Origin: Stegostoma tigrinum | Taxonomy: Eukaryota | Length of the DNA stretch: 64,000 bases | Assembly: GCF_030684315.1 (NCBI RefSeq) | Contig: NC_081391.1 | Location: forward strand, 21,350,629 to 21,414,628 | Direction of reading: 5' to 3' | Part shown: piece by piece, positions 4,887 through 63,967 of the stretch | Layout: each line of letters opens with the position of its first letter | Numbering within the stretch: position 1 is the stretch's first letter | Notes under the pieces: model-generated | Seen by the model: only the letters and a program-made list of their open reading frames with translations | Database searches by the model: none | What the model was told of the DNA's origin: nothing | Translations under genes and position numbers: made by a program

Positions 4887-5663
4887 GAGACTTGTGGTCT
4901 TGAATGGTCTATTTCAGTGTTAGGGCTGTGATATGATTGTACTAATGATTTACATCCTTGTGGAAGCCTGCATCAGTCCAAATATAACTTTTTATATCTT
5001 GTCCTATTAATGAAGCCTTTTTTTTAATAAACATCCTAACTGTGATTAACTACTGGAAATAAAAGACTGAAATGAGCTGCTGGAAAAGCTTAGTGGGTCT
5101 GGTAGGATCTGTGGTGAGAAATCAGTTCCTGTTTTTGGTCCGGTGACCTTTCCTTCATGGTTTTTAGTTGCTACTTATGAGGAGCAGACTTTTTCCACTC
5201 CCAAGATGGATTATCTGGAACAAAAATCAGTCACTGTCTCTTGTGCAGATGAGGTGTTAGGACAGTGGGGCTAAATCAGATGAGTGATGTTGGTAATGTG
5301 AGGAGCTCAGATTTCAGGTTCTCTTGGTCAACATGCACATGTCCCTTCGTTCTGTTGGACAATGCCCTGATTGGCTTCCAGCACTGGGTAATAGTGTTTC
5401 TGACCTGCAGTGCAGGGATGTCTAATGCCTGTTGCCAGCTGTGACCGTCACCGTGCACTGTCTCACCAAGTCACCTACCAGGGGTTGTAGCGGGTGCTAC
5501 TTAATCTTTATTTCTAGATGTTTGAACAAATGTCTGTCTAGTTTAGTTTATGGATGACCATAAATGTAAATACCTGTCTTCTTACTGTCCATCTAACTTC
5601 CATTTCGTGAGCAAAACCAAGCTGAATTGAGTGAAATTTACTTCCCATTTTGTCTGTTTGCAG

Positions 5664-8689: not shown

Positions 8690-9879
8690 AAGCATGTGGA
8701 TGAGGGAAGGGCAGTTGACGTGGTGTAATTGGACTTCAGTAAAGCCATTGATAAAGTTTCACATGGTAGGCTATTGGAGAAAATACAGAGGCAGAGAATT
8801 GAGGGAGATTTAGCAGTTTGGATTAGAAACTGGCTTTCTGTAAGAAGGCAACGAGTGGTGGTTGATGGAAAATATCCAGCCTGGAGTCAGGTCACTCGTA
8901 GTGTGCCTCAAGGATCTACTTTAGGACCACCGCTGTTTGTCATTTTTATAAATGACTTGGACGCAGGCATAGGTGGATGGGTTAGTAAGTTTGCAGATGA
9001 CACTAAAGTCGGTGGAGTGGTGGACGGTGTGGAAGAATGATGCACGTTGCAGGGAGACTTGGATAAACTGCAGAATTGGGCTGAAAGGTGGCAAATGGAG
9101 TTCAATGCAGATAAATGTGAGTTGATTCAATTTTGGGGGAATAACAGGAAGGCAGAATACTAGGTCAATGGAAAGATTCTTGGCAGTGCGGATGTGCAGA
9201 TGGATCTTGGTGTCCATGTACATAGATCCTTGAAAGTTGTCACCCAGATTGATAATGCTGATAAGAAGGCTTACCGTGTGTTAGGTTTTATTGGTAGAGG
9301 GATTGAGTTCCGGAGCCGTGATGTCATGCTGCAACTGTACAAAACGCTAGTGCGGCCTCATTTGGAATATTGCGTGCAGTTCTGGTCACCCCATTACAGG
9401 AAGGATGTGGAAGCATTGGGAAAGGTGCAGAGGAGATTTACCAGGATGTTGCCTGGTCTGGAGCGCAGGCCCTATGAAGAAACGCTGAGGGACTTGGATC
9501 TGTTCTCATTGGAGAGAAGTAGGCTAAGAGGGGATTTAATAGAGACATACAAGATGATCAGAGGATTAGATAGGGTGGACAGTGAGAGTCTTTTTCCGAG
9601 GATGATGACTTCAACTTGTACAAGGGGGCATAGCTACAAATTGCGGGGTGATACATTTAAGACATTTGTCAGAGGCAGGTTCTTTGCTCAGAGAGTGGTA
9701 AGGGCGTGGAAAGCCCTGCCTGCCAATGTAGTTAACTCAGCCACGTTAGGGGCATTTAAACATTTCTTGGATAAGCATATGGATGGTGACGTGATTGTGT
9801 AGGAGGTGGGGCTTGGATTAGCTCACAGGTCGGCGCAACATCGAGGGCCGAAGGGCCCGTTCTGCGCTGTATTGTTCTA
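8690..9879 (+). mobile_element. 5'-truncated CR1 LINE (type c) with TSD TGAACC
   Basis: RT motifs DFSKA.DKV.H, PQGS.LGP and FADD, with internal stops (e.g. TGA at 9038). TGAACC at 8684-8689 and 9880-9885. Confidence 0.92.
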
Positions 9880-9885
9880 TGAACC

Positions 9886-10470
9886 TTGTGTTTTCAAATT
9901 GAGGCATCGAGTATAAAAGCAAGGAATTGATGATACCCCTCTACAACTCATTGGTTAGACCACATTTGCAGTGATGTGCTCAGTTCTGGGCGTGGCTTTT
10001 AAGGAAGGGCATGCAAGCCCTGGACAGAGTTCAAAGGTGATTTATAATAATGACACCTGGAATGGGGAATTTCAGACACATGGAAAGATTAAAGAAATAG
10101 CGCTTATTCTCCTTGGAGCAAGGAGCACTTGTTGAAGTGATCAAAATTATCACCAATTCTGTCAGGGTAAAGGGGGATATTCTGTTTTCACCAGTGGATA
10201 CGTTAGTGACGAGGGGTCACAATTTGTCAGTGAGGGAGCTCACAGTGAGAGGAGGAGAAACCTCTTCACTCAGAAAGTTGGTAGGGTTTGGTATGCGTAG
10301 CTGACAGGAGTGATGGACGCAGATTCCACAGGTGGCTTTAGAAAAGCAGCTGTATACATATATGGAAGTGGCAAATTTAGAGGGATACAGACATAGGGCT
10401 GGAGAGTGGGGCTGGGTGTGGAATGCTTTCAGAAACTGAATCAGGCACAATGGGCCAAATGGCCTCCTAT
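9886..10470 (+). mobile_element. Older degraded CR1 relic that hosts the type-c insertion
   Basis: Decayed GIEYKSKE..LY.SLVRPHLQ.C.QFW-like sequence, ending in a gggccaaatggcctcct tail. Confidence 0.6.
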
Positions 10471-11134
10471 CATTAAAAATCCTCTGCATGTTCCCCCAGG
10501 AAATTCTCAGAGTTTGGAGAGGGGCTTTGTACTCCTCTCAGTGGGCACCTGTACAAGGCACCTTTAATGTGGGAAAGCTGTTACACATCAGCAGAGATAT
10601 GGTCCTTTACACAAGGTAGACCCAGTTCCACTGGCAAAGAAATGTTGACTGGGGATCCCCCCACTGCTGACCTTCACCCACCGTCACAGCCAACGATAGC
10701 ACATGCCTATCTTCCACCTGGATGGCCGTTGGGAACTTGTTTTGCATTGCACTTTACCAGGACCCTCCCCTCGATCGTACCGTCCTGGGTGGCCCTGCCA
10801 GGAGGTGAAATCCTCTTCAGGTATCACTCTCAGAACCAACAGAACACTCGAGGCTCTCCATCACTGTGTGGTGACAATCCACAGGCAGGAGCTGGAGGCA
10901 GGGAGATGCTGCTCAGGTACAGACCCATCACAGAATCGGAGAATTGTTGTGGCACAGCAGGCGGCCATTCGGTCCTTTGTGCCTGCACCTGTTCTGGTTG
11001 TTTTCTAATTCTGCCTGTAAAGATGTTACAAAATCTCTGGATCTGGTATGGACTTGGACCAAGGCTTCCTGGTCCACAGCTAGGGACATTACCCCTGCAT
11101 CACAATACCCTGGCTGCACTGGTTGTACAAACTT

Positions 11135-11500
11135 AGAATCATCGAAAAAAAATTGTTGGATTCGGCCATTCAGCCCCCTCCAGACTGCTCTGCCATTCCA
11201 TGTGATTGTGGCTGATTCCATAACTCAGGTCCATCTTCCCACTCTCTCTCCATACTCTTTGATCCCTGCAGCCCTCAAAGCTACACCCAACTGCTCCTGG
11301 AAAACATTCAAAGTTTGTGGCCTCAAATGTTTTCTGTGGCACAGAATTCCACAGGCCCCCCACTCTCTCGGTGAAGAGATTTCTCCTCATCTCAGGCCTA
11401 AATGTGTACTTAGGCTGTGACCCCTGATCCTGAACTTTTCCATCATCAGGAACATCCTTCCTGTCTTTTCCACAGCTGACACTATGACAATTTTCGATGA
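11135..11500 (-). mobile_element. Minus-strand CR1 relic upstream of the ferritin promoter
   Basis: Reverse frame reads FRPEMRRNLFTERVGGLWNSVPQ, like a CR1 ORF2 C-terminus, followed by a ggctgaatggcc tail. Confidence 0.65.
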
Positions 11501-11734
11501 CCCCGAGCCAATTTCCCACCTTTCTTTCCCAAATCCCAGCACAACAGGCTGAGAAACTGACACTCCCCTTCCTCAATGAGTCCCTTGTGCAGTTGATCAC
11601 AACCACCATAATTTAAAAAACAAAACGAGCAATCTTTTCTCAAACCATATTTACTTCTTTTAAAAAAGAACCAAATAACACACGACCTGATTGAGTGGTG
11701 CAGAAGGTTTGAGATGCCGAATGGCCTCCTGCTG

Positions 11735-11930
11735 TTCCAATCACAGAATAACCATCCAGACCTGGCTCTCATCTCCACCTCTGATCAGCTCTGCTTAACA
11801 CACCCTCCCCCCTCTTTCTCATTGGTGCCTGTATGCTGCGGTGGTTCCTGATTGGCTAGCAGCAACTGTCAGTCATCATCAGTTCCGCCTCTCTCTGTTG
11901 TGACTGCAGGATGGTCCCAGGACTATAAAT
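11735..11930 (+). promoter_or_regulatory. Ferritin copy 3 proximal promoter (CCAAT motifs, TATAAAT at 11924-11930)
   Basis: One CCAAT, two ATTGG and a TATAAATA 77 nt upstream of the ATG. The same layout occurs in copies 7, 9 and 11. Confidence 0.65.
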
Positions 11931-12000
11931 ACAAGAGCCTGTGGGAGAGAGAGACTTAGTTCTAGAGTTTTCTTGGTGCTTGTGAGCAGGAATAGTGAAG

Positions 12001-14875
<2,875 letters not shown>

Positions 14876-24912: not shown

Positions 24913-27291
24913 GTGGGGTCAATAATATCTGTTGTACATGGTGACCTCATTCTCGTGAATGGCTTTGGTTGTGCTCTGAGCAAATAAAAGTAGTGTTCAC
25001 CATGGAACTGAGTACTGTGTCACTTCATAGCTGCTTCTGGTTGCTGTTTTAACAAGTGATCACAAAATGGATTTTGTTCTTTGACAACCTTTTGATTCAC
25101 TGCCTGCCCCAGTTATTGGCTCGGTGTTTGCTTCTGCTGAGCGTCTGTCTGTAGGGATTGAGTGGGCAATCTTGACCTTGGAAATGCCACAACTGGCAAA
25201 CATCTGCATTGCAGACAATGCCACAACAAAATCTGTCCTCCGCTTCCCCAGGACAATTTTTCAGGACCAGCTTCTGGTCAAAACCATGACTGAAATCTGT
25301 CCTGTGCCTAAACAATTGGCATTGCCAAGGCCTGTCCATTCACTCAATCTTCAGCATTTTTGGAAAAACCAAGCTGACACTGGAAACCAGGAACAAAAGC
25401 TGCTGGGAAATCTCAGGTTTGGTAGTGAGAAGTGTTGAACAGAACCGGGACATGAGACACGTGTTTATCTCTTGACTGATTTTGTTGCCAGGCCATGAGG
25501 TGTTTTCCACCTACTTGTTCTCTTGCTTAAATTCTACTGACTTTAATAGGTCACAAAATTCCTCATTAGAAGAATATAAAGTTGACCAATCATGCAAGGT
25601 ACACCTGCTTTTTTGCAACTGTTTACCATTTACATGTTTCCTGAGCTAGAGAAGTGGTTTCTCTCGTATGTCCTTTCCATTCAGTAGAATGAAAGCTCTG
25701 CTTTCTCCCTGACAATGCTAATGACTATGGCCTCTATTAGGCAATGAAGCAGTGCCCACCTTCTAAAGCATCTGCTGTAACTCCTGTCCTTGCTCTGCAA
25801 TGCAAAGGTGACAAATGCTGAGGACACCTGGTGAAAATCAAGCTAAAAACAAAATACCACTTGCAGAAGTCAGTAGTTCCAATTTCCTTTACATTTAATT
25901 GTGAAGAAAATCAGCTTTCTGATGTAATCTGGCCTCCATGTGGCTCCACACACGCTGCATTGGGTCTAGCTCATTGCTGTCAATCACAATCAGTCACTGG
26001 TTTCTAATGGGTGACCACTGACAATTCCTTGACAGGATAAGGATGTCACTGACCAGGCAGCATTTATCCTCTCTCTGAACTGCCCATGGGACAATTAGTC
26101 ACCCACAGTGCTTTAGGCTTGGTGTCATATACTGGCCAGACCAGGTAAGGATGGCAGTTTGGCAGTTCCCTTCCCTGAATGACTTCAGTGAAAAGGATAT
26201 TTTATTCAGACTAGGAATTGCATGCTCATTTTTAGGTTCTTAATGCCCGAAGAGAGTTGTTCAGACAGAATCAGGACAACGGGCATCAGTCCAACACTCC
26301 AGAAGCTTAAGAGTTGCCAGCTCAGAGCAGCCACGAGATTCACTCCTTCCACCACTGACACACAGGGACTGCAATGTGTACTATCACCAAATGTTGTAGA
26401 AATCCACCAAAGCTCCTTAGACAACACCTTCCAAAGCCCCCATTACTTGCCATGGGACAAGGGCAGCAAATACATGGAACACAACCGCCTCTAAGTTCTA
26501 CACCAAACCATTCACCATCCTGAGTTGGAAACATGGTCCCATTCCCCTAGGTTGCTGGATCAGAATCCTGGAATTCCCTCCCTAACAGCATTGGGGATCT
26601 GCCTACACCAAATGGGCAACAGCAATTCAAGAACGTAAGCCACCACATTCTCTCATCTAATGTTAGGCCTGATCTCCGAGGGTTTCAACTACCTCTGGCT
26701 GATGGTTCTTTTGTGAAATTGTCAAGTTCCAGCTCAACCACAGCTGGAGTGCTCAGTTCTAGCAGCTTCGACCCAAAGATGGTTATGCACAGAATTTCTG
26801 CAATGAACTTGGACAGAGAGCTGGTTCATTGATGATAACGGTTTGTCCCAGTCCCTCTGTGTAGAAGGTTAAGGGATGGCCGTGTTTGAAATTTCAAAGA
26901 GGATTAATGGATTTGACAGAGTGAACAGACAGAATCTATTTCTTGTCTATGGTCATTGAGGACTGTGTGCAAAATAGGATTATAGTTTTCACATTTCAAC
27001 AAAATCATCCAGGATAATGTCAAAAACAGCTTCTTTGTGGAGAAGATAATATGTGCACGTGCTGTTAGATATTTATTGGGTAAGGCTTGACTTTGACAAT
27101 CACTTTCTAATTTCAACACTAAAAATATGTGAATAACACATTTTGTTTGAGAAACATAGAAAGACAAAACAGGCTCAATGTTACAAATCTGATGTGAGTA
27201 CAGGAGCAGAGAGACTTTGGGTTTCAAGTATGTGATTATCTGAAAGTGACCAGCCAAGATGAAGCTGTTATTGAGAAGGCTGAGGTGAACC

Positions 27292-28478
27292 AAGCATGTG
27301 GATGAGGGAAGGGCAGTTGACATGGTGTACATGGACTTCAGTAAAGCCTTTGATAAGGCTCCACATGGTAAGCTATTGGAGAAAATACAGAGGCACAGGA
27401 TTGAGGGAGATTTAGCAGTTTGGATTAGAAACTGGCTTTCTGTGAGAAGGCAACGAGTGGTGGTTGATGGAAAATATCCAGCCTGGAGTCAGGTCACTCG
27501 TGGTGTGCCTCAAGGATCTGCTTTAGGACCACTGCTGTTTGTCATTTTTATAAATGACTTGGACGCAGGCATAGGTGGATGCGTTAGTAAGTTTGCAGAT
27601 GACACTAAAGTCGGTGGAGTGGTGGACGGTGTGGAAGAATGTTGCACGTTGGAGGGAGACTTGGATAAACTGCAGAATTGGGCTGAAAGGTGGCAAATGG
27701 AGTTCAATGCAGATAAATGTGAGTTGATTCACTTTTGGGGGAATAGCAGGAAGGCAGAATACCGGGTCAATGGAAAGATTCTTGGCAGTGTGGATGTGCA
27801 GATGGATCTTGGTGTCCATGTACATAGATCCCTGAAAGTTGTCACCCAGGTTGATGCTGATAAGAAGGCTTACCGTGTGTTAGGTTTTATTGGTAGAGGG
27901 ATTGAGTTCCGGAGCCGTGATGTCATGCTGCAACTGTACAAAACGCTAGTGCGGCCTCATTTGGAATATTGCGTGCAGTTCTGGTCACCCCATTACAGGA
28001 GGGATGTGGAAGCATTGGGAAAGGTGCAGAGGAGATTTACCAGGATGTTGCCTGGTCTGGAGCGCAGGCCCTATGAAGAAACGCTGGGGGACTTGGATCT
28101 GTTCTCATTGGAGAGAAGTAGGCTAAGAGGGGATTTAATAGAGACATACAAGATGATCAGAGGATTAGATAGGGTGGACAGTGAGAGTCTTTTTCCGAGG
28201 ATGATGACTTCAACTTGTACAAGGGGGCATAGCTACAAATTGCGGGGTGATACATTTAAGACATTTGTCAGAGACAGGTTCTTTACTCAGAGAGTGGTAA
28301 GGGCGTGGAAAGCCCTGCCTGCCAATGTAGTTAACTCAGCCACGTTAGGGGCATTTAAACAGTCCTTGGATAAGCATATGGATGATGACGGGATGGTGTA
28401 GGAGGTGGGGCTTGGATTAGCTCACAGGTCGGCACAACATCGAGGGCCGAAGGGCCTGTTCTGCGCTGTATTGTTCTA
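27292..28478 (+). mobile_element. 5'-truncated CR1 LINE (type c); open 367-codon RT/C-terminal ORF2 fragment
   Basis: ORF 27298-28401 with YMDFSKAFDK, GVPQGSALGPLLF and FADD. No endonuclease domain. TSD TGAACC at 27286-27291 and 28479-28484. Confidence 0.93.
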
Positions 28479-29670
28479 TGAACCTTGTGTTTTCAAATTG
28501 AGGCATCGAGTATAAAAGCAACGAATTGATGTTACACCTCTACAAATCATTGGTTAGACCACATTTCAATTATGTACTCAGTTCTGGGCGTGGCATTCAA
28601 GGAAGGACAAGAAGAACCTCCAAAAGAGTTCAAAGGAGATTTATCAGAATGACCCCAGGAATGAGGAATTTTAGATACACGGAAAGATTAAGGAAAATGG
28701 GGTGAATTTCCTTGCAGGTGACCTTATTGAGAGGTGACCCTGTTGACGTGATCAAAACTATGAACAATTTTGATAGAGTAAACAGGATATTCTGATTTCA
28801 GCAGTTGACTTGTCAGTGACGAGAGTTCACAGTTTGTCAGTAGGGGAGATCAGAGTGAAATGGGAAGAAACCTCTTTGCTCAGAAAGTTGATCCCCTAAC
28901 TCAGTCCCATCTTCCCTCTCTCTCTCCATACTCTTTGATCCCTGCAGCCCTCAAAGCTACACCCAACTGCTCCTGGAAAACATTCAAAGTTTTGGCCTCA
29001 AATGTTTTCTGTGGCACAGAATTCCACAGGACCCCCACTCTCTCGGTGAAGAGATTTCTCCTCATCTCAGTCCTAAATGTGTCCTTAGGCTGTGACCCCT
29101 GATCCTAAACTTTTCCATCATCAGGAACATCCTTCCTGTCTTTTCCACAGTTGACACTATGACAATTTTCGATGACCCCGAGCCAATTTCCCACCTTTCT
29201 TTCCCAAATCCCAGCACAACAGGCTGAGAAACTGACACTCCCCTTCCTCAATGAGTCCCTTCTGCAGTTGATCACAACCACCATAATTTAAAAACAAAAC
29301 GAGCAATCTTTTCTCAAACCATATTTACTTCTTTCAAAAAAGAACCAAATGACCTATGACCTGAGTGAGTGGTGCAGAAGGTTTGAGATGCCGAATGGCC
29401 TCCTGCTGTTCCAATCACAGAATAACCATCCAGACCTGGCTCTCATCTCCACCTCTGATCAGCTCTGCTTAACACACCCTCCCCCTCTCTCTCATTGGTG
29501 CCGCTATGCATGGGTGGCTCCTGATTGGCTAGCAGCAACTGTCAGTCATCATCAGTTCGGTCTCCCTCTGGGTGAGTGCCGGTTGTCTCAGGAGTAGAAA
29601 CACAACAGCTTTGGGGATTGAGGCCTTTGTTCCAGAGTTGTCCTTGTGATTGTGAGCAGGAATAGTGAAG

Positions 29671-32063
<2,393 letters not shown>

Positions 32064-36224: not shown

Positions 36225-36416
36225 CCAATCACAGAATAACCATCCAGACCTGGCTCTCATCTCCACCTCTGATCAGCTCTGCTTAACACACCCTCCCCCT
36301 CTCTCTCATTGGTGCCTGTATGCAGGGGTGGTTCCTGATTGGCCACCAGCAACTGTCAGTCATCATCAGTTCTGCCTCTCTCTGTGTGACTGCAGGATGG
36401 TCCCAGGACTATAAAT
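36225..36416 (+). promoter_or_regulatory. Ferritin copy 7 promoter
   Basis: CCAAT at 36225, ATTGG at 36308 and 36338, TATAAAT at 36410-36416. ATG at 36487. Confidence 0.65.
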
Positions 36417-36486
36417 ACAAGAGCCTGTGGAAGAGAGAGACTTAGTTCTAGAGTTTTCTTGGTGCTTGTGAGCAGGAATAGTGAAG

Positions 36487-38877
<2,391 letters not shown>

Positions 38878-48324: not shown

Positions 48325-48331
48325 TATAAAT
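48325..48331 (+). promoter_or_regulatory. TATA box of ferritin copy 9
   Basis: TATAAAT 77 nt upstream of the ATG at 48402, preceded by the conserved CCAAT block. Confidence 0.65.
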
Positions 48332-48401
48332 ACAAGAGCCTGTGGGAGAGAGAGACTTAGTTCTAGAGTTTTCTTGGTGCTTGTGAGCAGGAATAGTGAA
48401 G

Positions 48402-50676
48402 ATGGTTTCCCAAGTGTGTCAGAACTACCACAAGGACTGTGAGGATGCTGTTAACAAGCAGATCAACCTGGAGCTCTATTCCTCCTATGTTTACCTCTCC
48501 ATGGTGAGCTTTGTGGAATTGAAGCCTGTGCTATGATAGTGTTGACCTGTTTGGTTTTTACGCTGGGTTAATGAATTAGCTGTAACATGTATTATTTTCT
48601 GTGGCCCTTCCCCTGTTGCAATCTAGTGCAGGTCTTAACACTGACTCTCTGTTCAAAACTTGACCACTGTCTTCATGTCCAACTGGCTCCTGGATGTGGA
48701 TGCCCAGCTTGCTGTCTCTGGACAATGTAACCCTTGGTGATTTTTTCATTTAACTCTGGAGGGATGATCTGGTCTTGGTCAATAATTAATTTTTGTAAAA
48801 CTTTGGTTGTATTCCTTTTCTCAACAAAAGCTTTTCCTGACACAAATATACTCCTTTTTTAAAACCTTGCCCTATTCACCGGACTGTCTTGTGCTCAAGA
48901 TGTCAAGTTCCCTGAACTAAAAGAACAGCTGCTGCTAGACATTAAACACTAACAAAAATAGCTAGAAAAGCTCTACAGAGCTGGAAGAAATCCAAGCTCT
49001 GGGTCCATTGACCCTTTCTCAGAAGTGGCTTTGAGCTATGCAATGTGAGGAAAGGGGCACATTTTCAGACTATGTATGTGTTTTTTTTTCTTTCTCTCTA
49101 ACAAAGCAGTTAAAATTCTGTGGAGTGGGTGGTAGGACACTGCGGTTATTCAGGTGGGTGATAGTGATAATGAGACTGCTGACTGAGCTTTCTGGTTGTG
49201 TTAATGAACACATGTCCCTTCATTCAGTTGGACAGGGGCCGAACTGGTCTCCACCTCCTGAACAATAGTGTTTCTAACCTGCAGAGCAGGGATGTCTAAT
49301 GGCTCTAGACAGCTCTCCCCTTCATCATCCATGGAAGGTGACTTCCTGCTTTGTCTGTTTTTTTAACCACTTAAATGTGGAATCCAGATGGTGCCCAGGT
49401 TAGTTCCTGAGTGAGGAGTGTCATTCATGAATTTCAGACAGTTTCCTTTTAGCCTCTCTCTTCCCACAGTTCTCTTACTTTGACCGGGATGATGTTGCCC
49501 TGCATCGCTTTGCTGAGTTCTTCAAGGAGCAGTCCCATGAGGAACGGGAACACGCTGAGAAACTGATGGCATTCCAGAATAAACGTGGAGGTCGAGTCAT
49601 CCTGCAGGACATCAAGGTTAGATTCTGAAGCCTTCTGTTTGCAGCTTTTTGTGAGCAGCTACAATCGACTGGTATCTCCATCTATTTAGCTTTAGCCTTG
49701 AACAAATACTGTGTGAAGGGGAGGGTGTTCACCAAAATAGGATTCCTTTAGGTTGAAAGGAAATACTCTGCACTTATGAGGGCAATTGAGAGGAACCAGA
49801 ATAGTGAGTAGATATCAATGTGAATGACTCTCCTTCAGACAGAATGAGGTAACAAAAGCTAAGACAGGAAATTGTTGCACTGTGGAAAGTAGCAGTGTCC
49901 AGCCTTTCTGAATCTGGAAGATGTTTCTAACACCACAATAGTGAAGCCAGGAACTACTTCCATTGGTACCTATTCTCTACATGTGAATTCTGAGAATCTA
50001 CATTAACAGTAGAATGTGTCTAGAAAATTTGTTATTCCCTCAGTACAAAATCTAGTTGTTGTCTTCAAATTAAAGTTGGTTTGCAGTACCTCCCCTACAA
50101 TGATGAGGGATAACTAACTGATCAGATGTAGACTAATGATACAACTGCCTGCTGAACTGTGCTTTCTGTTCCTGCTTCCCTCCCTCCAGAAGCCAGAGCA
50201 GGATGAGTGGGGCAGTGGTCTGGAGGCAATGCAGAGAGCTCTGCAGATGGAGAAGGATGTGAACCAGAGTCTGCTGGATCTGCACAAACTCGCCTCTGGC
50301 CACACTGACCCTCATGTGAGTTTGTAAACTTTCTTCTTGGAAGAAAGTGGTGTGTTTGTGCACTCTCTGGGTAAAAATCCAATTACCTTCTCCCAGCCTC
50401 CTGCAGGCTGTTAAAACAAACTTACAAATGCATCACCTCAGTGGACCTCCACCTGGTTGTGATGGTCACATCTGTCATGGGGGTCACTTTCAGACACTTT
50501 TGATCCTCTGGATTAATTTTCTCTTCCAGCTGTGTGACTTCCTGGAGAGGCAATACTTGGATGAGCAAGTGAAGATGATCAAGAAGCTGGGAGATCACAT
50601 CACCAACCTGAAGAGACTGGGAGCCCCTGACAATGGCATGGGAGAGTACCTGTTTGACAGGCTCACACTCGGCTGA
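48402..50676 (+). CDS. FTH1: Ferritin heavy-chain-like copy 9 (intact, 173 aa)
   Basis: Exons 48402-48503, 49470-49616, 50190-50315 and 50530-50676. GT-AG introns, no stops; ends LTLG. Confidence 0.93.
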
Positions 50677-52748: not shown

Positions 52749-53910
52749 TGACCAAACAGGTAGATGAGAGAAAACCGGTTGATGTGGTGTATATGGATTT
52801 CGGCAAGGCTTTCGATTAGGCTATTGTACAAAATACGGAGGAATGGGATTGTGGGAGATATAGCAGTTTGGATCAGAAATTGGCTTGCTGAAAGAAGACA
52901 GCGTGGTGGTTGATGGGAAATGTTCATCCTAGAGACCGGTTACTCGCGGTGTACCGCAAGGGTCGGTGCTGGGTCCACTGCTGTTTGTCATTTTTATAAA
53001 CGTAGAAGGATGGGTTAGTAAATTTGCAGACGACACGAAGGTCGGTGGAGATGTGGATAGTGACGAAGAATGTTGTAGGTTACAGAGAGACGTAGATAAG
53101 TTGCAGAGCTGGGCTGAGAGGTGGCAAACGGAGGTTAATGCGGACAAGTGTGAGGTGTTGTACTTTGGTAGGAGGAACCGGAAGGCAAAGTACTGTAAGA
53201 TTCTTGGTAGTGTAGATGAGCAGAGAGATCTCGGTGACCATGTACACAGATCCTTGAAAGTTGCCACCCAGGTTGACAGGGTTGTTAAGAAGGCATACAG
53301 TGTTTTAGCTTTTATGAATCCAGGGATCATGTTCCGGAACCAAGAGGTTATGCTGCAGCTGTACAAAACTCTGGTGCGGCCGCACTTGGAGCATTGCGTA
53401 CAATTCTGGTCACCGCGTTATAAGAAGGATGTGGAAGTTTTGGAAAGGGTGCAGAGGAGGTTTACTAGGATGTTGCCTGGTATGGAGGGAAAGTCTTACG
53501 AGGAAAGGCTGAGGGACTTGAGGCTGTTCTCGTTAGAGAGAAGAAGGTTGAGAGGTGACTTAATTGAGACATATAAGATAATCAAAGGGTTAGACAGGTT
53601 GGATAGGGAGAGCCTTTTCCCTAGGACGGAAACGGCGAGCACGAGGGGGCATAGCTTTAAATTGAGGGGTGAAAGATATAGGACAGATGTCAGAGGTAGT
53701 TGCTTTACTCAGAGAATAGTAAGGGTATGGAACGCTTTGCCTACAACGGTCGTAGATTCACCAACTTTAAGTACATTTAAGTCGTCATTGGACAAGCATA
53801 TGGACGTACGTGGAATAGTGTTGGTTAGATGAGCTTCAGATCGGTATGACAGGTCGGCACAACGTCAGGGCCGAAGGGCCTGTACTGTGCTGTAATGTTC
53901 TATGTTCTAT
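52749..53910 (+). mobile_element. 5'-truncated CR1 LINE (type a) with TSD AACATA; 288-codon open ORF2 fragment
   Basis: ORF 52966-53832. Tail tgttctatgttctat. AACATA at 52743-52748 and 53911-53916. Confidence 0.93.
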
Positions 53911-55043: not shown

Positions 55044-55050
55044 TATAAAT
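55044..55050 (+). promoter_or_regulatory. TATA box of pseudogene copy 10
   Basis: TATAAAT 74 nt upstream of the ATG at 55118. The upstream CCAAT block is missing. Confidence 0.5.
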
Positions 55051-55117
55051 ACAGAGCTTGTCGGGGAGCAACTCAGTTCTAGGGTGGTCTTGGTTTTAAT
55101 GAACAAGGCTAGTGAAG

Positions 55118-57527
55118 ATGGTTTCCCAAGTGTGTCAGACCTACCACAAGGACTGTGAGGATGCTGTGAACAAACAGATCAACCTGGAGCTTTATTCCTC
55201 CTATGTTTACCTCTCCATGGTGAGACTTGTGATCTTGAATGGTCTATTTCAGTGTTAGGGCTGTGATATGATTGTACTGAGCCTTTAAGTGGCTTCTTGC
55301 TCAATGATTTAGTACTACCATATATCTTGTCTGTTGTCCTTCCTGGAATGAATCCTGTGAGTGCTCTTAATACTAATTCTGTAGCAATTTTAAGCTTGTC
55401 TTGTGTTGGAGCTGGCTCTTGTCTAGGAGTCCCCAGTATGTTGTAATTCTGGGCAGAGCACATTTTTGGTGCTGAGGGATGGCCTGGTTCTGCTTCTTAA
55501 TTCAACTCCTCCTTCCATGTTGATATCAATGGCCCATTTATATTTGAAATCATTTACATCCTTGTGGAAGCCTGCATCAGTCCAAATCTAACTTTTTATA
55601 TCTTGTCCTTTTAATGAAGCCTTTTTTTTAATAAACATCCTAACTGTGATTAACTACTGGAAATAAAAGACTAAAATGAGCTGCTGGAAAAGCTTAGTGG
55701 GTCTGGTAGGATCTGTGGTGAGAAATCAGTTCCTGTTTTTGGTCCGGTGACCTTTCCTTCATGGTTTTTAGTTGCTACTTATGAGGAGCAGACTTTTTCC
55801 ACTCCCAAGATGGATTATCTGGAACAAAAATCAGTCACTGTCTCTTGTGCAGATGAGGTGTTAGGACAGTGGGGCTAAATCAGATGAGTGATGTTGGTAA
55901 TGTGAGGAGCTCAGATTTCAGCTTCTCTTGGTCAACATGCACATGTCCCTTCGTTCAGTTGGACAATGCCCTGATTGGCTTCCAGCACTGGGTAATAGTG
56001 TTTCTGACCTGCAGTGCAGGGATGTCTAATGCCTGTTGCCAGCTGTGACCGTCACCGTGCACTGTCTCACCAAGTCACCGACCAGCGGTTGTAGCGGGTG
56101 CTACTTAATCTTTATTTCTAGATGTTTGAACAAATGTCTGTCTAGTTTAGTTTATGGATGACCATAAATGTAAATACCTGTCTTCTTACTGTCCATCTAA
56201 CTTCCATTTCGTGAGCAAAACCAAGCTGAATTGAGTGAAATTTACTTCCCATTTTGTCTGTTTGCAGTTCTCTCTCTTTGACCAGGATGATGTTGCCCTC
56301 CATCACTTTGCTGAGTTCTTCAAGGAGCAGTCCCATGAGGAGCGGGAACATGCTGAGAAACTGATGGCATTCCAGAATAAACGTGGAGGCTGAGTCCTCC
56401 TGCAGGACATCAAGGTTGGATTCTGAGAATGTCTGTCTGTTTGCAGCTTTTTGAGCAGCGACAATCGAATGGTATCTCCATCTATTTAGCTTCAGGATTG
56501 ATCAAATACTATGTCAAGGGCAAGTTGTTCCCCGAAACAGGATTTGTTTAGGGAAAAGGGAAATACTTTGCATTTGTGACTCAATAGCAGAAGGCAATTC
56601 AGATGATCCAGGCTACTGGATGGTGAGCACATGTCCCTGTATGTGACTCTATATGGACAAGGTGAGGTAACAAAAGGTAAGGCTGAGAACTTGCAGCTAC
56701 AAAAAGCAGCAGCATCCAACCTCACTACATCTAGAAGAGGTTTGTAATGCCTTGGGACCATTCTGGTCACTACATCAAACAGTAAAGCAAGGGATTACTT
56801 CCATTGCGACTGATTCTAGATACGACTTCTTTCAGAATTCACAGTAACAGTGAGATATGTTAACATTTCTTTATTCTCAGGCCAGCATAAAATCTAGAGG
56901 GTTTTTGTATCCAAGTAAAATTTTTTGTCTGAATGTAACCCCTGGAAATGATGAGGGATAACTAACTGATCAGATGTAGACTAATGATACAACTGCCTGC
57001 TGAGCTGTGCTTTCTGTTCCTGCTTCCCTCCCTTCAGAAGCCAGAGCAGGATGAGTGCGGCAATGGTCTGGAGGTGATGCAGAGAGCTCTGCAGATGGAG
57101 AAGGATGTGAACCAGAGTCTGCTGGATCTGCACAAACTTGCCTCTGACCACATAGACCCTCATGTGAGGTTTTATCCCTTTCCTGGTAGAAAGTGATCTG
57201 TTTGTGTACTTCCAGGGTGGGGAATCCAATTATTTTTCTACCTGCCTCCTGCAGGATGTTTAAACAAAACCTTGTGAAGGCATCACTTGCATGCCCCTCC
57301 CCCATAGGGAGGTGATGGTCACTTCTGTCATGGGAGGTCACTGACATTTTTTGATCCTTGTTGGATTAATTTTGTCTTCCAGCTGTGATTTCATGGAGAG
57401 GCACTACTTGGATAAGCAAGTGAAGATGATCAAGAAGCTGGGAGATCACATCACCAACCTGAAGAGACTGGGAGCCCCTGACAATGGCATGGGAGACTAC
57501 ATGTTTGACAGGCTGCCACTCCATTGA
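55118..57527 (+). pseudogene. FTH1: Ferritin copy 10 pseudogene (four exons)
   Basis: Exons 55118-55219, 56268-56414 (TGA at 56391), 57038-57163 and 57383-57527 (2-bp deletion). Confidence 0.9.
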
Positions 57528-59293
57528 ATGGGGTCAATATCTATATCTGTTGTACATGGTGACCTCATTCTACTAAATGACTAGTTGTTCTCTGAGCAAA
57601 TTAAAAGAGTGTTCACCATGGAACTGAGTACAGTGTGTAATTTTCATAGCTTCTGGTTCTTGGAGGTTTTTTGTGTTTTAACATCTGGTAATCAAATCCA
57701 TTTTCTGTTCTTTCTTGCAACCTTTGATTCAATGCCTGCCCCAGTAATTTGCTCGGTGTTTGCTTCTGCTGAGCGTCTGTCTGTAGGGATTGAGTGGGCA
57801 ATCTTGTCCTTGGAAATGCCACAACTGGCAAATATCTGCATTGCAGACAATGCCAGAACAAAATCTGTCCTCAGCTTTCCCAGGACAATTTTTCAGGACC
57901 AGCTTCGGCTCAAAACCATGACTGAAATCTGTCCTGTGCCTAAACATTAGGCATTGCCAAGGCCCGTCCATTCATTCAATCTTCAGCATTTTTGGAAAAA
58001 CCAAGCTGACACTGGAAACCAGGAACAAAAGCTGCTGGGAAATCTCAGGTTTGGTAGTGAGAAGTGTTGAACAGAACCGGGACATGAGACACGTGTTTAT
58101 CTCTTGACTGATTTTGTTGCCAGGCCATGAGGTGTTTTCCACCTACTTGTTCTCTTGCTTAAATCCTACTGACTTTAATAGGTCACAAAATTCCTCATTA
58201 CAAGAATATAAAGTTGACCAATCGTGCAAGGTACACCTGCTTTTCTGCAATTGCTTACCATTTACATGTTTCCTGCGCTAGAGAATTGTTTCTCTAGTAT
58301 GTCCTTTCCATTCAGTAGAATGAAAGCTCTGCTTTCTCCCTGACAATGCTAATGACTATGGCCTCTATTAGGCAATGAAGCAGTGCCCACCTTCTAAAGC
58401 ATCTGCTGTAACTCCTGTCCTTGCTCTGCAATGCAAAGGTGACAAATGCTGAGGACACCTGATGACAATAAAGCTAAAAACAAAATACCACTTGCAGAAG
58501 TCAGTAGTTCCAATTTCCTTTACATTTAATTGTGAAGAAAATCAGCTTTCTGATGTAATCTGGCCTCCATGTGGCTCCACACACGCTGCATTGGGTCTAG
58601 CTCATTGCTGTCAATCACAATCAGTCACTGGTTTCTAATGGGTGACCACTGACAATTCCTTGACAGGATAAGGATGTCACTGACCAGGCAGCATTTATCC
58701 TCTGTCTGAACTGCCCATGGGACAATTAGTCAACCACAGTGCTTTAGGCTTGGTGTCATATACTGGCCAGACCAGGTAAGGATGGCAGTTTGGCAGTTCC
58801 CTTCCCTAAATGACTTCAGTGAAAAGGATATTTTATTCAGACTAGGAATTGCATGCTCATTTTTAGGTTCATAATGCCCAAAGAGAGTTTTTCAGACAGA
58901 ATCAGGACAATGGGCCTCAGTCCCACACTCCAGAAGCTTAACAGTTGCCAGCTCAGAGCAGCCACGAGATTCACTCCTTCCACCACTGACACACAGGGAC
59001 TGCAATGTGTACTATCACCAAATGTTGTAGAAATCCACCAAAGCTCCTTAGACAACACACGTGCTGTTAGATATTTATTGTGTAAGGCTTGACTTTGACA
59101 ATCACTTTCTAATTTCAACACTAAAAATATGTGAATAACACATTTTGTTTGAGAAACATAGAAAGACAAAACAGGCTCAATGTTCCAAATCTGATGTGAG
59201 TACAGGAGCAGAGAGACTTTGGGTTTCAAGTATGTGATTATCTGAAAGTGACCAGCCAAGATGATGCTGTTATTGAGAAGGCTGTGGTGAACC

Positions 59294-60483
59294 AAGCATG
59301 TGGATGAGGGAAGGGCAGTTGACGTGGTGTAATTGGACTTCAGTAAAGCCATTGATAAGGTTTCACATGGTAGGCTATTGGAGAAAATACAGAGGCAGAG
59401 AATTGAGGGAGATTTAGCAGTTTGGATTAGAAACTGGCTTTCTGTAAGAAGGCAACGAGTGGTGGTTGATGGAAAATATCCAGCCTGGAGTCAGGTCACT
59501 CGTAGTGTGCCTCAAGGATCTACTTTAGGACCACTGCTGTTTGTCATTTTTATAAATGACTTGGACGCAGGCATAGGTGGATGGGTTAGTAAGTTTGCAG
59601 ATGACACTAAAGTCGGTGGAGTGGTGGACGGTGTGGAAGAATGTTGCACGTTGCAGGGAGACTTGGATAAACTGCAGAATTGGGCTGAAAGGTGGCAAAT
59701 GGAGTTCAATGCAGATAAATGTGAGTTGATTCAATTTTGGGGGAATAACAGGAAGGCAGAATACTGGGTCAATGGAAAGATTCTTGGCAGTGCGGATGTG
59801 CAGATGGATCTTGGTGTCCATGTACATAGATCCTTGAAAGTTGTCACCCAGATTGATAATGCTGATAAGAAGGCTTACCGTGTGTTAGGTTTTATTGGTA
59901 GAGGGATTGAGTTCCGGAGCCGTGATGTCATGCTGCAACTGTACAAAACGCTAGTGCGGCCTCATTTGGAATATTGCGTGCAGTTCTGGTCACCCCATTA
60001 CAGGAAGGATGTGGAAGCATTGGGAAAGGTGCAGAGGAGATTTACCAGGATGTTGCCTGGTCTGGAGCGCAGGCCCTATGAAGAAACGCTGAGGGACTTG
60101 GATCTGTTCTCATTGGAGAGAAGTAGGCTAAGAGGGGATTTAATAGAGACATACAAGATGATCAGAGGATTAGATAGGGTGGACAGTGAGAGTCTTTTTC
60201 CGAGGATGATGACTTCAACTTGTACAAGGGGGCATAGCTACAAATTGCGGGGTGATACATTTAAGACATTTGTCAGAGGCAGGTTCTTTGCTCAGAGAGT
60301 GGTAAGGGCGTGGAAAGCCCTGCCTGCCAATGTAGTTAACTCAGCCACATTAGGGGCATTTAAACATTTCTTGGATAAGCATATGGATGGTGACGTGATT
60401 GTGTAGGAGGTGGGGCTTGGATTAGCTCACAGGTCGGCGCAACATCGAGGGCCGAAGGGCCCGTTCTGCGCTGTATTGTTCTA
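59294..60483 (+). mobile_element. 5'-truncated CR1 LINE (type c) with TSD TGAACC; 357-codon ORF2 fragment
   Basis: ORF 59333-60406 with RT motifs. Near-identical to 8690-9879. Confidence 0.93.
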
Positions 60484-62523
60484 TGAACCTTGTGTTTTCA
60501 AATTGAGGCATCGAGTATAAAAGCAAGGAATTGATGATACCCCTCTACAACTCATTGGTTAGACCACATTTGCAGTGATGTGCTCAGTTCTGGGCGTGGC
60601 TTTTAAGGAAGGGCATGCAAGCCCTGGACAGAGTTCAAAGGTGATTTATAATAATGACACCTGGAATGGGGAATTTCAGACACACGGAAAGATTAAAGAA
60701 ATAGCGCTTATTCTCCTTGGAGCAAGGAGCACTTGTTGAAGTGATCAAAATTATCACCAATTCTGTCAGGGTAAAGGGGGATATTCTGTTTTCACCAGTG
60801 GATACGTTAGTGACGAGGGGTCACAATTTGTCAGTGAGGGAGCTCACAGTGAGAGGAGGAGAAACCTCTTCACTCAGAAAGTTGGTAGGGTTTGGTATGC
60901 GTAGCTGACAGGAGTGATGGACGCAGATTCCGTAGGTGGCTTTAGAAAAGCAGCTGTATACATATATGGAAGTGGCAAATTTAGAGGGATACAGACATAG
61001 GGCTGGAGAGTGGGGCTGCGTGTGGAATGCTTTCAGAAACTGAATCAGGCACGATGGGCCAAATGGCCTCCTATCATTAAAAATCCTCTGCATGTTCCCC
61101 CAGGAAATTCTCAGAGTTTGGAGAGGGGCTTTGTACTCCTCTCAGTGGGCACCTGTACAAGGCACATTTAATGTGGGAAAGCTGTTACACATCAGCAGAG
61201 ACATGGTCCTTTACACAAGGTAGACCCAGTTCCACTGGCAAAGAAATGTTGACTGGGGATCCCCCCACTGCTGACCTTCACCCACCGTCACAGCCAACGA
61301 TAGCACACGCCTATCTTCCACCTGGATGGCCGTTGGGAACTTGTTTTGCATTGCACTTTACCAGGACCCTCCCCTCGATCGTACCGTCCTGGGTGGCCCT
61401 GCCAGGAGGTGAAATCCTCTTCAGGTATCACTCTCAGAACAAACAGAACACTCGAGGCTCTCCATCACTGCGAGGTGACAATCCACAGGCAGGAGCTGGA
61501 GGCAGGGAGATGCTGCTCAGGTACAGACCCATCACAGAATCGGAGAATTGTTGTGGCACAGCAGGCGGCCATTCGGTCCTTTGTGCCTGCACCTGTTCTG
61601 GTTGTTTTCTAATTCTGCCTGTAAAGATGTTACAAAATCTCTGGATCTGGTATGGACTTGGACCAAGGCTTCCTGGTCCACAGCTAGGGACATTACCCCT
61701 GCATCACAATACCCTGGCTGCACTGGTTGTACAAACTTAGAATCATCGAAAAAAAATTGTTGGATTCGGCCATTCAGCCCCCTCCAGACTGCTCTGCCAT
61801 TCCATGTGATTGTGGCTGATTCCATAACTCAGTCCCATCTTCCCACTCTCTCTCCATACTCTTTGATCCCTGCAGCCCTCAAAGCTACACCCAACTGCTC
61901 CTGGAAAACATTCAAAGTTTTGGCCTCAAATGTTTTCTGTGGCACAGAATTCCACAGGCCCCCCACTCTCTCGGTGAAGAGATTTCTCCTCATCTCAGGC
62001 CTAAATGTGTACTTAGGCTGTGACCCCTGGTCCTGAACTTTTCCATCATCAGGAACATCCTTCCTGTCTTTTCCACAGCTGACACTGTTACAATTTTCGA
62101 TGACCCCGAGCCAATTTCCCATCTTTCTTTCCCAAATCCCAGCACAACAGGCTGAGAAACTGACACTCCCCTTCCTCAATGAGTCCCTTGTGCAGTTGAT
62201 CACAACCACCATAATTTAAAAACAAAACGAGCAATCTTTTCTCAAACCATATTTACTTCTTTCAGAAAAGAACCAAATGACCTATGACCTGATTGAGTGG
62301 TGCAGAAGGTTTGAGATGCCGAATGGCCTCCTGCTGTTCCAATCACAGAATAACCATCCAGACCTGGCTCTCATCTCCACCTCTGATCAGCTCTGCTTAA
62401 CACACCCTCCCCCTCTCTCTCATTGGTGCCTCTATGCATGGGTGGCTCCTGATTGGCTAGCAGCAACTGTCAGTCATCATCAGTTCTGCCTCTCTCTGTG
62501 TGACTGCAGGATGGTCCCAGGAC

Positions 62524-62530
62524 TATAAAT
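62524..62530 (+). promoter_or_regulatory. TATA box of ferritin copy 11
   Basis: TATAAAT 77 nt upstream of the ATG at 62601. Confidence 0.65.
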
Positions 62531-62600
62531 ACAAGAGCCTGTGGGAGAGAGAGACTTAGTTCTAGAGTTTTCTTGGTGCTTGTGAGCAGGAATAGTGAAG

Positions 62601-63967
62601 ATGGTTTCCCAAGTGTGTCAGAACTACCACAAGGACTGTGAGGATGCTGTTAACAAGCAGATCAACCTGGAGCTCTATTCCTCCTATGTTTACCTCTCCA
62701 TGGTGAGCTTTGTGGAATTGAAGCCTGTGTGATAACAGTGTTGACCTGTTTGGGGTTTTTATGCTGGGTTAATGAATTAGCTGTATCATGTATTATTTGC
62801 TGTGGCCCTTCCCCTGTTGCAATCTAGTGCAGGCCTTAACACTGACTCTCTGTTCAAAACCTGACCATTGTCTTCATGTCCAACTGCCTCCTGGATGTGG
62901 ATGCCCAGCTTGCTGTCTCTGGACAATGTAACCCTTGGTGATTTTTCATCTAACTCTGGAGGGATGATGTGGTCTTTGTCAATAACTAAATTTTAAAATT
63001 GGTTGCATTCCTTTTCTCAACAAAAGCTTTCCCTGGTGGAAACTTTTCCTGACACAAATATACTCCTTTTTGTTTAAAACCTTGCCCCATTCACCAGACT
63101 GTCTTGTGCTCAAGATGTAAAGTTCCCTGAACTAAAAGAACAGCAGCTGCTGGACACTAAACACCAACGGAAAAGCTCTAAACATCTGGTTGAAAACCAA
63201 GCTCTGGGTCCACTGACCCTTTCTCAAGTGGCTTTGAGCTATGCAATGTGAGGAAAGAGGCACACTTTCACACGATGTAGGTGCTTTTTTTTTCTCTCTC
63301 TAACAAAGCAGTTAGAATTCTGTGGAGTGGATGGTAGGACACTGGGGTTATTCAGGTGGGTGATGGTGATAATGAGGCTGCTGACTGAGCTTTCTGGCTG
63401 TGTTCATGAACACATGTCCCTTCATTCAGTTGGACAGGGGCCTAACTGGTCTCCACCTCCTGAACCATAGTGTTTCTAACCTGCAGAGCAGGGATGTCTA
63501 ATGGCTATAGACAGCTGTCCCCTTCAGCAGGCACCATGCCACATGTACTGTCTCTCTTTCTCGCTCACACAGGCCAGGGATTGCATTTGCTTTTTGTCCT
63601 TGATTTCCAGAAAGCTGGTGAAATATCTGCACAAAGGCTGCTTTAGTATCTGTTGTTTGGGTTATAATCCATGGAAGGTGACTTCCTGCTTTGCCTGTTT
63701 TTTTACCACTTAAATGTGGAATCAAGATGGTGCCCAGGTTATTTCCTGAGTGAGGAGTGTCATTCACGAATTTCAGACAGTTTCCTTTTAACCTCTCTCC
63801 CTCCCTCCCTCCCTCCACAGTTCTCTTACTTTGACCGGGATGATGTTGCCCTGCATCACTTTGCTGAGTTCTTCAAGGAGCAGTCCCATGAGGAACGGGA
63901 ACACGCTGAGAAACTGATGGCATTCCAGAATAAACGTGGAGGTCGAGTCCTCCTGCAGGACATTAAG
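62601..63967 (+). CDS. FTH1: Ferritin heavy-chain-like copy 11 (exons 1-2; continues beyond the window)
   Basis: Exons 62601-62702 and 63821-63967, both intact with GT-AG sites. Confidence 0.88.

What the first reader, a model, noticed from the sequence alone, without database searches (positions are those of the whole stretch)
36410..36489. Ferritin genes without a canonical iron-responsive element
Seen: only about 70 nt separate the TATA box from the ATG, implying a leader of roughly 45-50 nt, and it contains no CAGTGN loop in copies 3, 6, 7, 9, 10 or 11. The leader ttttcttgGTGCTTGtgagcaGGAA faintly resembles the 3' half of the ferritin IRE (..caGTGCTTGgacGGAA) and can form only a small tgct/agca hairpin. 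Established: vertebrate cytosolic H, L and M ferritin mRNAs are normally repressed by IRP1/2 through a 5' IRE. Inference: the amplified family has escaped iron-dependent translational control, which fits constitutive or inducible high-level production.
Basis: partly seen in the sequence, partly recalled or inferred. Interest (0 to 1): 0.7.

Follow-up and report, generated by a model that had tools for sequence, protein, structure and literature searches.

The report
Shark ferritin array without iron switch
This shark gene is one of at least 150 tandem copies of an iron-storage (ferritin) gene, and every copy checked lacks the RNA hairpin that normally lets iron levels switch vertebrate ferritin translation on and off, so these copies are likely made whenever they are transcribed, possibly to stock iron in the ovary.

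Summary
Confirmed. TATAAATA (36410-36417) lies 77 nt before the ATG (36487) of an intact four-exon ferritin, and no IRE is present. The gene belongs to a carpet-shark array of at least 150 copies. None of 89 array leaders examined has an IRE. Two single-copy ferritins in the same genome keep perfect IREs and were the only ferritin IREs found genome-wide. An IRE-bearing upstream exon is unlikely: there is no acceptor-like site and no IRE in 766 kb searched, and spliced contigs from related species follow the leader collinearly to 28 nt before the ATG. The 'IRE relic' is not supported: GTGCTTG occurs in 7 of 52 leader types and the match depends on alignment scoring (p 0.02-0.25). A second IRE-less array shares the promoter, and the array proteins group with those of other sharks and a sawfish, so the loss is likely ancient. 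The proteins keep the ferroxidase site under purifying selection. The arrays and their ovary expression are published for Greenland shark; I found the IRE loss in no paper. This scan noted it before on other parts of the same array. Start site, IRP binding and tissue are untested.

The parts
36308..36342 (+). Two reverse CCAAT boxes (ATTGG at 36308-36312 and 36338-36342), likely promoter elements
   Evidence: Sequence; ATTGG lies upstream in 83 of 89 array-1 and 9 of 9 array-2 copies, 0 of 4 single genes in the same span; function inferred
36410..36417 (+). TATA box TATAAATA
   Evidence: a TATA-type box lies 55-79 nt before the ATG in 72 of 89 array-1 copies
36440..36486 (+). Predicted 5' leader of about 43-47 nt with no IRE and no upstream ATG; start site inferred from TATA spacing and the conserved (C/T)AGTT motif
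   Evidence: spliced contigs of relatives align from 36468 and run 3-9 nt further
36454..36481 (+).
   Evidence: GTGCTTG in 7 of 52 leader types versus GTGATAG in 16 of 52; p 0.017-0.25 by scoring
36487..36588 (+). Ferritin exon 1, coding part
   Evidence: GT donor follows; joined to exon 2 in contigs of relatives
37701..37847 (+). Ferritin exon 2
   Evidence: Pfam PF00210; closest named proteins from carpet sharks
38290..38346 (+). C/D-box-like motif in intron 2, limited to the young right-hand subfamily; function doubtful
38379..38504 (+). Ferritin exon 3
38731..38877 (+). Ferritin exon 4, coding part to stop; 173-aa product with all seven ferroxidase-centre residues
38946..38951 (+). ATTAAA, likely poly(A) signal
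   Evidence: 68 nt after the stop; function inferred
11924..12101 (+). Copy 3: TATA, IRE-less leader and exon 1 with a 1-nt deletion (pseudogene)
29595..29772 (+). Copy 6: degenerate TATA (TAGAAAC), IRE-less leader, exon 1; frame intact
48325..48503 (+). Copy 9: TATA, IRE-less leader, exon 1; frame intact
55044..55219 (+). Copy 10: TATA, IRE-less leader, exon 1; stop after codon 75 (pseudogene)
62524..62702 (+). Copy 11: TATA, IRE-less leader, exon 1; frame intact, gene runs past the window end

Best explanation
This is one intact copy of a large shark ferritin gene array whose short leader has no iron-responsive element, so its mRNA is likely not repressed by IRP1/2 and its output is likely set by transcription and copy number, possibly for iron storage in the ovary. 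Shown: the sequence, the array, the missing IRE, the intact ferroxidase site, purifying selection, and spliced transcripts of this gene type in related species. Inferred: a start about 30 nt after the TATA box; no IRP binding; a single ancient loss of the IRE, probably through a replaced promoter and leader rather than slow decay of the hairpin, in the ancestor of both arrays and before sharks and rays split; and a division of labour in which two single-copy IRE-bearing ferritins handle iron-responsive storage. The ovary role (about 0.5) rests on one published Greenland shark observation.
For: IRE absent in 0 of 89 array-1 and 0 of 9 array-2 leaders and present in 2 of 4 single-copy ferritins. 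A model of this genome's own IREs finds only those two in 766,164 bases. A genome-wide pattern with up to 2 mismatches gives those two plus 2 unrelated places, against 2 control hits. Four IRE_II matches clustered on C17, probably the transferrin-receptor 3' UTR (not verified), suggest the IRE system is otherwise intact. The TATA-to-ATG distance is 55-79 nt in 72 of 89 copies across 52 leader types. Spliced contigs in runs X1, X4 and X5 cover the leader collinearly. 42 of 59 four-exon array-1 genes are intact, all 42 keep the seven ferroxidase residues, and dN/dS is 0.27-0.30. Array-1 proteins form a 99/99 clade with proteins of nine other shark genera and a sawfish. An array-1 promoter profile matches 6 of 9 array-2 promoters at 11-17 bits (best background 2.7 bits of 207 pieces) and none of the 4 single genes (pairwise p 0.002 in 4 of 4 scorings). 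Ovary-specific expression is reported for the Greenland shark cluster.
Against: No start site was mapped: the RNA evidence is assembled contigs of other species, labelled RNA only by guess, with no tissue given. IRP binding was not assayed. I examined 89 of at least 150 leaders directly. IRE status in other sharks rests on two short contig ends (X1 9 nt, X6 35 nt). The join of the two arrays in the protein tree is weak (83/73) and their parent gene is unresolved. No CPE-like word precedes the poly(A) signal in 42 of 42 intact genes, which gives no support to a stored maternal mRNA. Yang et al. report transcription of some copies in fin and blood, so expression is not only ovarian. 17 of 59 four-exon genes are broken and 5 of 11 window units lack exon 1.
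Confidence: 0.8

Rival explanations
1. The leader is a decayed IRE inherited from the neighbouring IRE-bearing ferritin (G000:C50:21609327, minus strand), inactivated by an 8-nt deletion that removed the bulged C, the 5' upper stem and part of the loop. This concerns origin only; the leader would still not bind IRP.
For: With cheap gap extension the window leader aligns to that IRE over 37 columns, p 0.019 against shuffles and 0.003 against genomic pieces; TATA-to-ATG gives p 0.002. GGAATAG is shared and occurs in 29 of 52 leader types. Synonymous distance to that gene (1.13) is far below that to the C20 ferritin (3.2).
Against: Scoring was chosen after seeing the match: p is 0.035, 0.25, 0.15 and 0.017 under four schemes, and 0.06-0.125 for the diverse left-part consensus. 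The TATA-inclusive test is inflated by the shared TATA box. The promoter profile does not find that gene. GTGCTTG is a minority state, and GGAATAG is part of a 13-nt ATAGTGA repeat that 6 copies lack. An equally good but incompatible 'relic' (11 nt of the other IRE) lies upstream of the TATA box in array 2, which shows how easily such matches arise.
Confidence: 0.25
2. The true mRNA starts further upstream or carries a spliced non-coding first exon with an IRE, so the genes are iron-regulated after all.
For: CAG (36473-36475) and TAG (36479-36481) precede the ATG; no start site was mapped.
Against: Pyrimidine fraction before those two sites is 0.50 and 0.36, against a median of 0.86 (5th percentile 0.71) for 211 real acceptors. 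Contigs X1 and X5 cross both sites collinearly. No IRE exists to be spliced in: none in the window on either strand, and the nearest lies 195 kb away on the opposite strand.
Confidence: 0.04
3. The array is largely neutral birth-and-death amplification; most copies are silent, so the missing IRE has little physiological effect.
For: 17 of 59 four-exon genes are broken; many window units lack exon 1; near-identical multi-kb duplications (98.5% over 8 kb) show rapid turnover, and some copies or contig C216 could be assembly redundancy.
Against: dN/dS about 0.3 with ferroxidase residues invariant in 42 of 42 intact genes; promoter conserved between two arrays at dS 0.7; spliced transcripts in relatives; the family is kept across sharks and a ray.
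Confidence: 0.12
4. The leader binds IRP or another iron sensor through a non-canonical structure, so iron control persists.
For: Non-canonical IRE-like elements are described (PMC8466369, seen only in the search listing).
Confidence: 0.04

Closest known systems
Shark tandem ferritin clusters: FTH1b of Yang et al. 2026 (PMC13214024) and the FTH1/FTL clusters of the Greenland shark preprint (10.1101/2024.09.09.611499)
   Same: Large tandem clusters of intron-containing ferritin genes on one chromosome, separate from FTH1a, shared among sharks (passages read).
   Different: Neither main text mentions IRE or UTR (word searches; supplements not seen). Here: at least 150 plus about 100 exon-1 copies in two arrays, a shared promoter, and no IRE in 98 of 98 leaders examined. 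Orthology to the Greenland shark clusters is inferred, not tested.
Canonical vertebrate H, L and M ferritin mRNAs with a 5' IRE (Rfam RF00037)
   Same: Four exons with the same boundaries, cytosolic-type protein, full H/M-type ferroxidase centre. All five salmon H and M isoforms keep an IRE (PMC4117605, passages).
   Different: No IRE, leader about 45 nt instead of well over 100 nt, TATA/CCAAT promoter unrelated to the two IRE-bearing genes, very high copy number.
Mammalian mitochondrial ferritin (FTMT)
   Same: Vertebrate ferritin with no IRE, controlled by transcription (PMC13010531, passages).
   Different: FTMT is a single intronless gene with a targeting peptide; these genes have introns, no N-terminal extension and occur in hundreds of copies.
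FTHL17 family
   Same: Germ-cell ferritin-like genes, six copies in mouse; E62K removes ferroxidase activity (PMC7760355, passages), as predicted for array 2.
   Different: Array 1 keeps all ferroxidase residues and has introns. That FTHL17 lacks an IRE is recalled, not read here.
Invertebrate yolk ferritins (Schistosoma, Lymnaea)
   Same: Egg-linked ferritins; IRE-less ferritin mRNAs in Schistosoma (reference titles and one passage in PMC1488847).
   Different: Distant phyla, independent origin; an egg role for the shark array is only inferred.
Hadal snailfish fthl27 tandem expansion (PMC10746142)
   Same: Tandem ferritin expansion in a fish, 14 copies (passages).
   Different: Much smaller, linked to ROS tolerance; IRE not mentioned in the main text.

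Membership tests
Iron-responsive element (IRE_I, RF00037) | Six-nt apical loop CAG(U/A)GN | tested here: not met
   None between TATA and ATG at 36410-36489; CAGWG words in some other leader types have no stem
Iron-responsive element (IRE_I, RF00037) | Five-pair upper stem, unpaired C, lower stem | tested here: not met
   0 of 89 array-1 leaders against 2 of 2 positive controls; open centroid, z +0.37
Iron-responsive element (IRE_I, RF00037) | Covariance-model score at or above the family cut-off | tested here: not met
   No IRE hit at E up to 10; own model finds nothing at any leader in the window
Iron-responsive element (IRE_I, RF00037) | Binds IRP1/2 and confers iron-dependent translation | not testable with these tools
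   Needs gel shift and reporter
Degenerate IRE relic | Similarity to a real IRE above chance and ancestral within the array | tested here: inconclusive
   p 0.017-0.25 by scoring, minority variant, profile negative
H/M-type cytosolic ferritin | Ferritin domain, about 175 aa, four exons | tested here: met
   173 aa; exons 102/147/126/147 nt; PF00210 on homologues
H/M-type cytosolic ferritin | Ferroxidase centre E27, Y34, E61, E62, H65, E107, Q141 (human numbering, recalled) | tested here: met
   All seven in 42 of 42 intact array-1 genes
H/M-type cytosolic ferritin | 5' IRE in the mRNA | tested here: not met
H/M-type cytosolic ferritin | 24-mer assembly and ferroxidase activity | not testable with these tools
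   Not assayed or modelled
Shark FTH1b tandem cluster | Tandem ferritins on a chromosome other than that of FTH1a, shared across sharks | tested here: met
   Arrays on C50, FTH1-like gene on C20; 99/99 clade with other sharks and a sawfish
Shark FTH1b tandem cluster | Orthology and synteny with the Greenland shark cluster | not tested
   No Greenland shark sequence or flanking genes were compared
Mitochondrial ferritin (FTMT type) | Intronless gene with N-terminal targeting peptide | tested here: not met
   Three introns; the ATG follows the TATA box with no upstream in-frame start

The most novel reading that the evidence does not exclude
Sharks and rays run an ancient second ferritin system uncoupled from iron sensing. 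One promoter-and-leader replacement before the shark-ray split removed the IRE and gave rise to two mega-arrays under a shared promoter: one with the iron-oxidising site intact (this array) and one with L-chain-like E62K/Q141E changes. Both are switched on together in the ovary to build mixed ferritin cages that load the large yolky egg with iron.
Probability: 0.35. Interest if true: 0.72.

Novelty: new variant of a known kind. Interest (0 to 1): 0.42.

Why it matters
The ferritin IRE is the textbook case of translational control, and cytosolic, intron-containing vertebrate ferritins are assumed to carry it. Shark ferritin expansions have recently been discussed in terms of ferroptosis and longevity without regard to regulation. 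If the copies lack the IRE, their output follows transcription and copy number rather than cell iron. Broad expression could then drain the labile iron pool, which favours a tissue-restricted role such as egg iron loading over general iron buffering. The claim is cheap to test with CAGE, an IRP gel shift and ovary proteomics.

Tried and rejected
No RNA holder was listed for this sequence; the laid runs are relatives with small word shares, RNA only by guess, and tissue is not given. Contigs cannot show a start or a level, so depth was not used. In X7 two 60-nt records begin at 36477 behind adapter-like letters: a weak hint, not counted. No contig covers 36200-36454: not evidence. The genome-wide Rfam searches scored only 82 and 87 candidates, so I did not treat them as exhaustive and added a pattern search. 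A 13-nt pattern was too common to inform (226 matches). The query was one base out of frame; it still exposed the second array, but its count is rough. De-duplication was weak (78 of 89 kept), so the profile relies on HMMER weighting. CPE-like words: 0 of 42. Homology of array promoters to the IRE-bearing genes or to gene A: not significant in 4 of 4 scorings. An IRE relic upstream of the TATA box in array 2 (11-nt match, p 0.007-0.13) was rejected as probably part of the shared promoter motif. Intron-2 motif as an ancient snoRNA: rejected, since it is confined to the young subfamily. The translation of L093 did not identify the C17 gene. The Piccinelli and Samuelsson IRE survey was not held. 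Rows dropped: 5 of 107 exon-1 copies without an ATG were left out of the leader counts; the tree used 16 of 71 reconstructed genes and 29 of 120 listed homologues; dN/dS used the 42 intact array-1 genes.

Full report
Observation. TATAAATA lies at 36410-36417 and the start codon at 36487, 77 nt from the first T. The ATG opens a four-exon ferritin (36487-36588, 37701-37847, 38379-38504, 38731-38877) of 173 aa. Copy 3 is frameshifted and copy 10 stops after 75 codons, so four are intact. Copy 6 has TAGAAAC instead of a TATA box. Rfam finds no IRE in the window or in 36380-36600 at E up to 10. The leader folds no better than shuffles (z +0.37, open centroid), whereas the neighbouring real IRE gives z -4.38.

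Genomic setting. The window is G000:C50:21350629-21414628. The closest named proteins are from carpet sharks (Stegostoma, Rhincodon, Chiloscyllium; 92-98% on exon 2). Exon 1 gave 150 scored matches of 419 candidates: 124 at C50:20.0-21.56 Mb and 26 on contig C216, by my count of the listing. A second array of about 100 matches lies at C50:12.98-14.36 Mb (query one base out of frame). Three divergent single genes flank the first array on the right. One of them (C50:21609327, minus strand, 195 kb from the window) has a perfect IRE, as does an FTH1-like gene on C20. Four IRE_II matches cluster within 260 nt on C17, probably the transferrin-receptor 3' UTR (inferred; one search did not identify the gene).

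Is the IRE really absent from the family? I retrieved 107 exon-1 copies, 102 with an ATG. A permissive rule scan found an IRE in 0 of 89 array-1 leaders, 0 of 9 array-2 leaders and 2 of 4 single genes. A covariance model of the two genomic IREs found only those two in 766,164 bases; the next hit scored 14.2 bits, E 4.7. Unfiltered on the window it found nothing at a leader. A genome-wide pattern with up to two mismatches gave the same two plus two unrelated places, against two control hits. So no array copy carries this IRE, although a strongly diverged one in the copies I did not fetch is not excluded.

Could an upstream exon supply one? Unlikely. A TATA-type box lies 55-79 nt before the ATG in 72 of 89 copies across 52 leader types. 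The two YAG sites before this ATG have pyrimidine fractions of 0.50 and 0.36, against a median of 0.86 for 211 real acceptors. Contigs from related species join the exons at or within a few bases of these boundaries. In X1 and X5 they align from 36468 across both YAG sites, with only 9 and 3 further letters. The nine letters in X1 match the array consensus rather than an IRE, taking the collinear leader to 28 nt before the ATG; X6 shows a 35-nt AT-rich end with no IRE. These runs are RNA only by guess, come from other species, and cannot show a start.

The relic. With an 8-nt gap the window leader aligns to the neighbouring gene's IRE (p 0.019 against shuffles, 0.003 against genomic pieces), and 12 of 45 related leader types reach p below 0.05 there. 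But the scoring was chosen after seeing the match. Under four schemes p is 0.035, 0.25, 0.15 and 0.017; it is never significant against the C20 IRE, and it is 0.06-0.125 for the consensus of the diverse left part of the array. GTGCTTG occurs in 7 of 52 types, GTGATAG in 16. GGAATAG is part of a 13-nt repeat that six copies lack. A promoter profile of array 1 does not find either IRE-bearing gene. An equally good, incompatible 11-nt match lies upstream of the TATA box in array 2. I put a true relic at about 0.25.

Age and function. Array-1 proteins form a 99/99 clade with proteins of nine other shark genera and a sawfish; array 2 joins weakly (83/73) and the parent gene is unresolved (16 of 71 genes and 29 of 120 homologues used). 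The array-1 promoter profile matches 6 of 9 array-2 promoters at 11-17 bits against a best background of 2.7 bits (p 0.002 in 4 of 4 scorings). The shared block includes CCAAT boxes, a TGATGTCATT(T/C)CCTG motif (CRE/ETS-like, label recalled) and the TATA box. This suggests one IRE loss before the arrays diverged (dS 0.70). Of 59 four-exon array-1 genes, 42 are intact; all 42 keep the seven ferroxidase residues, and dN/dS is 0.27-0.30. The three intact array-2 genes carry E62K and Q141E.

Mechanism. Shown: IRE-less leaders, intact and selected coding frames, spliced transcripts in relatives, and IRE-bearing paralogues in the same genome. Inferred from established IRE/IRP biology (PMC11719527, passages): without the hairpin IRP1/2 cannot block initiation, so output follows transcription and copy number. 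Inferred with about even odds: the main site is the ovary. This rests on one sentence reporting ovary-specific expression of the Greenland shark cluster. Against a strictly ovarian role, Yang et al. see some copies transcribed in fin and blood, and no CPE-like word was found in 42 of 42 3' ends.

What is known. Shark ferritin expansions are published (10.1101/2024.09.09.611499 and PMC13214024; passages read). Neither main text contains IRE or UTR; their supplements were not seen and could bear on this. IRE-less vertebrate ferritin is known from FTMT (PMC13010531, passages), whereas all five salmon isoforms keep the IRE (PMC4117605, passages). Eight library searches listed no paper on IRE loss in shark ferritins; the library lacks most subscription journals, and the main IRE survey was not held. 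This scan noted the same thing on other parts of these arrays; those notes are not independent support.

Verdict. A real feature and a new variant of a known kind: the array is known, its IRE loss appears unreported, and the relic is unproven. Interest 0.42.

Noticed in passing
window 38290-38346 and the same place in intron 2 of nine other window copies (e.g. 1250-1311, 6340-6401): A 60-nt motif with C, D', C' and D box-like words, about 35 nt before the acceptor (Rfam sR1 up to 32 bits, cut-off 45). The exact 19-mer occurs 75 times, all in the young right part of the array and C216, and the motif is absent from the left part, array 2 and the single genes. Likely chance amplified with the array; no target was tested.
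   Followed up: partly
G000:C50:12.98-14.36 Mb (L064-L072): Second ferritin array of about 100 copies, IRE-less in 9 of 9 leaders, with E62K and Q141E in 3 of 3 intact genes and a promoter homologous to array 1.
   Followed up: partly
G000:C50:21570745-21580354, minus strand (L048-L049): Divergent single ferritin (starts MDHN) with TATA 124 nt before the ATG, no IRE and E61K/H65Q changes; contigs of this type appear in X1 and X6.
   Followed up: partly
G000:C50:21591658-21601900, plus strand (L050-L051): Single ferritin behind a GC-rich, TATA-less region with no IRE; my start call gave no open frame.
   Followed up: no
window 36345-36400 and all 50 right-part copies examined: The young subfamily lacks the TGATGTCA motif (0 of 50) that 13 of 39 left-part and 4 of 9 array-2 promoters carry; 46 of 50 have GCAA(C/T)TG instead. 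Its transcriptional control may differ.
   Followed up: partly
window 4944-12940 and 55548-63526: An 8-kb duplication at 98.5% identity; five of eleven ferritin units in the window lack exon 1. Very recent unequal crossing-over or assembly redundancy.
   Followed up: no
window 3911-4923, 8687-9802, 27289-28401, 52751-53832, 59291-60406: Fragments resembling CR1/L2-type LINE reverse transcriptase (label recalled) are carried in most repeat units.
   Followed up: no
G000:C17:50449498-50449757 (L093-L096): Cluster of four IRE_II matches on the minus strand, probably the transferrin-receptor 3' UTR.
   Followed up: partly
G000:C216 (L008-L011, L017, L019, L020): A small contig with at least 26 exon-1 copies nearly identical to this subfamily; extra array or alternative haplotype.
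   Followed up: no
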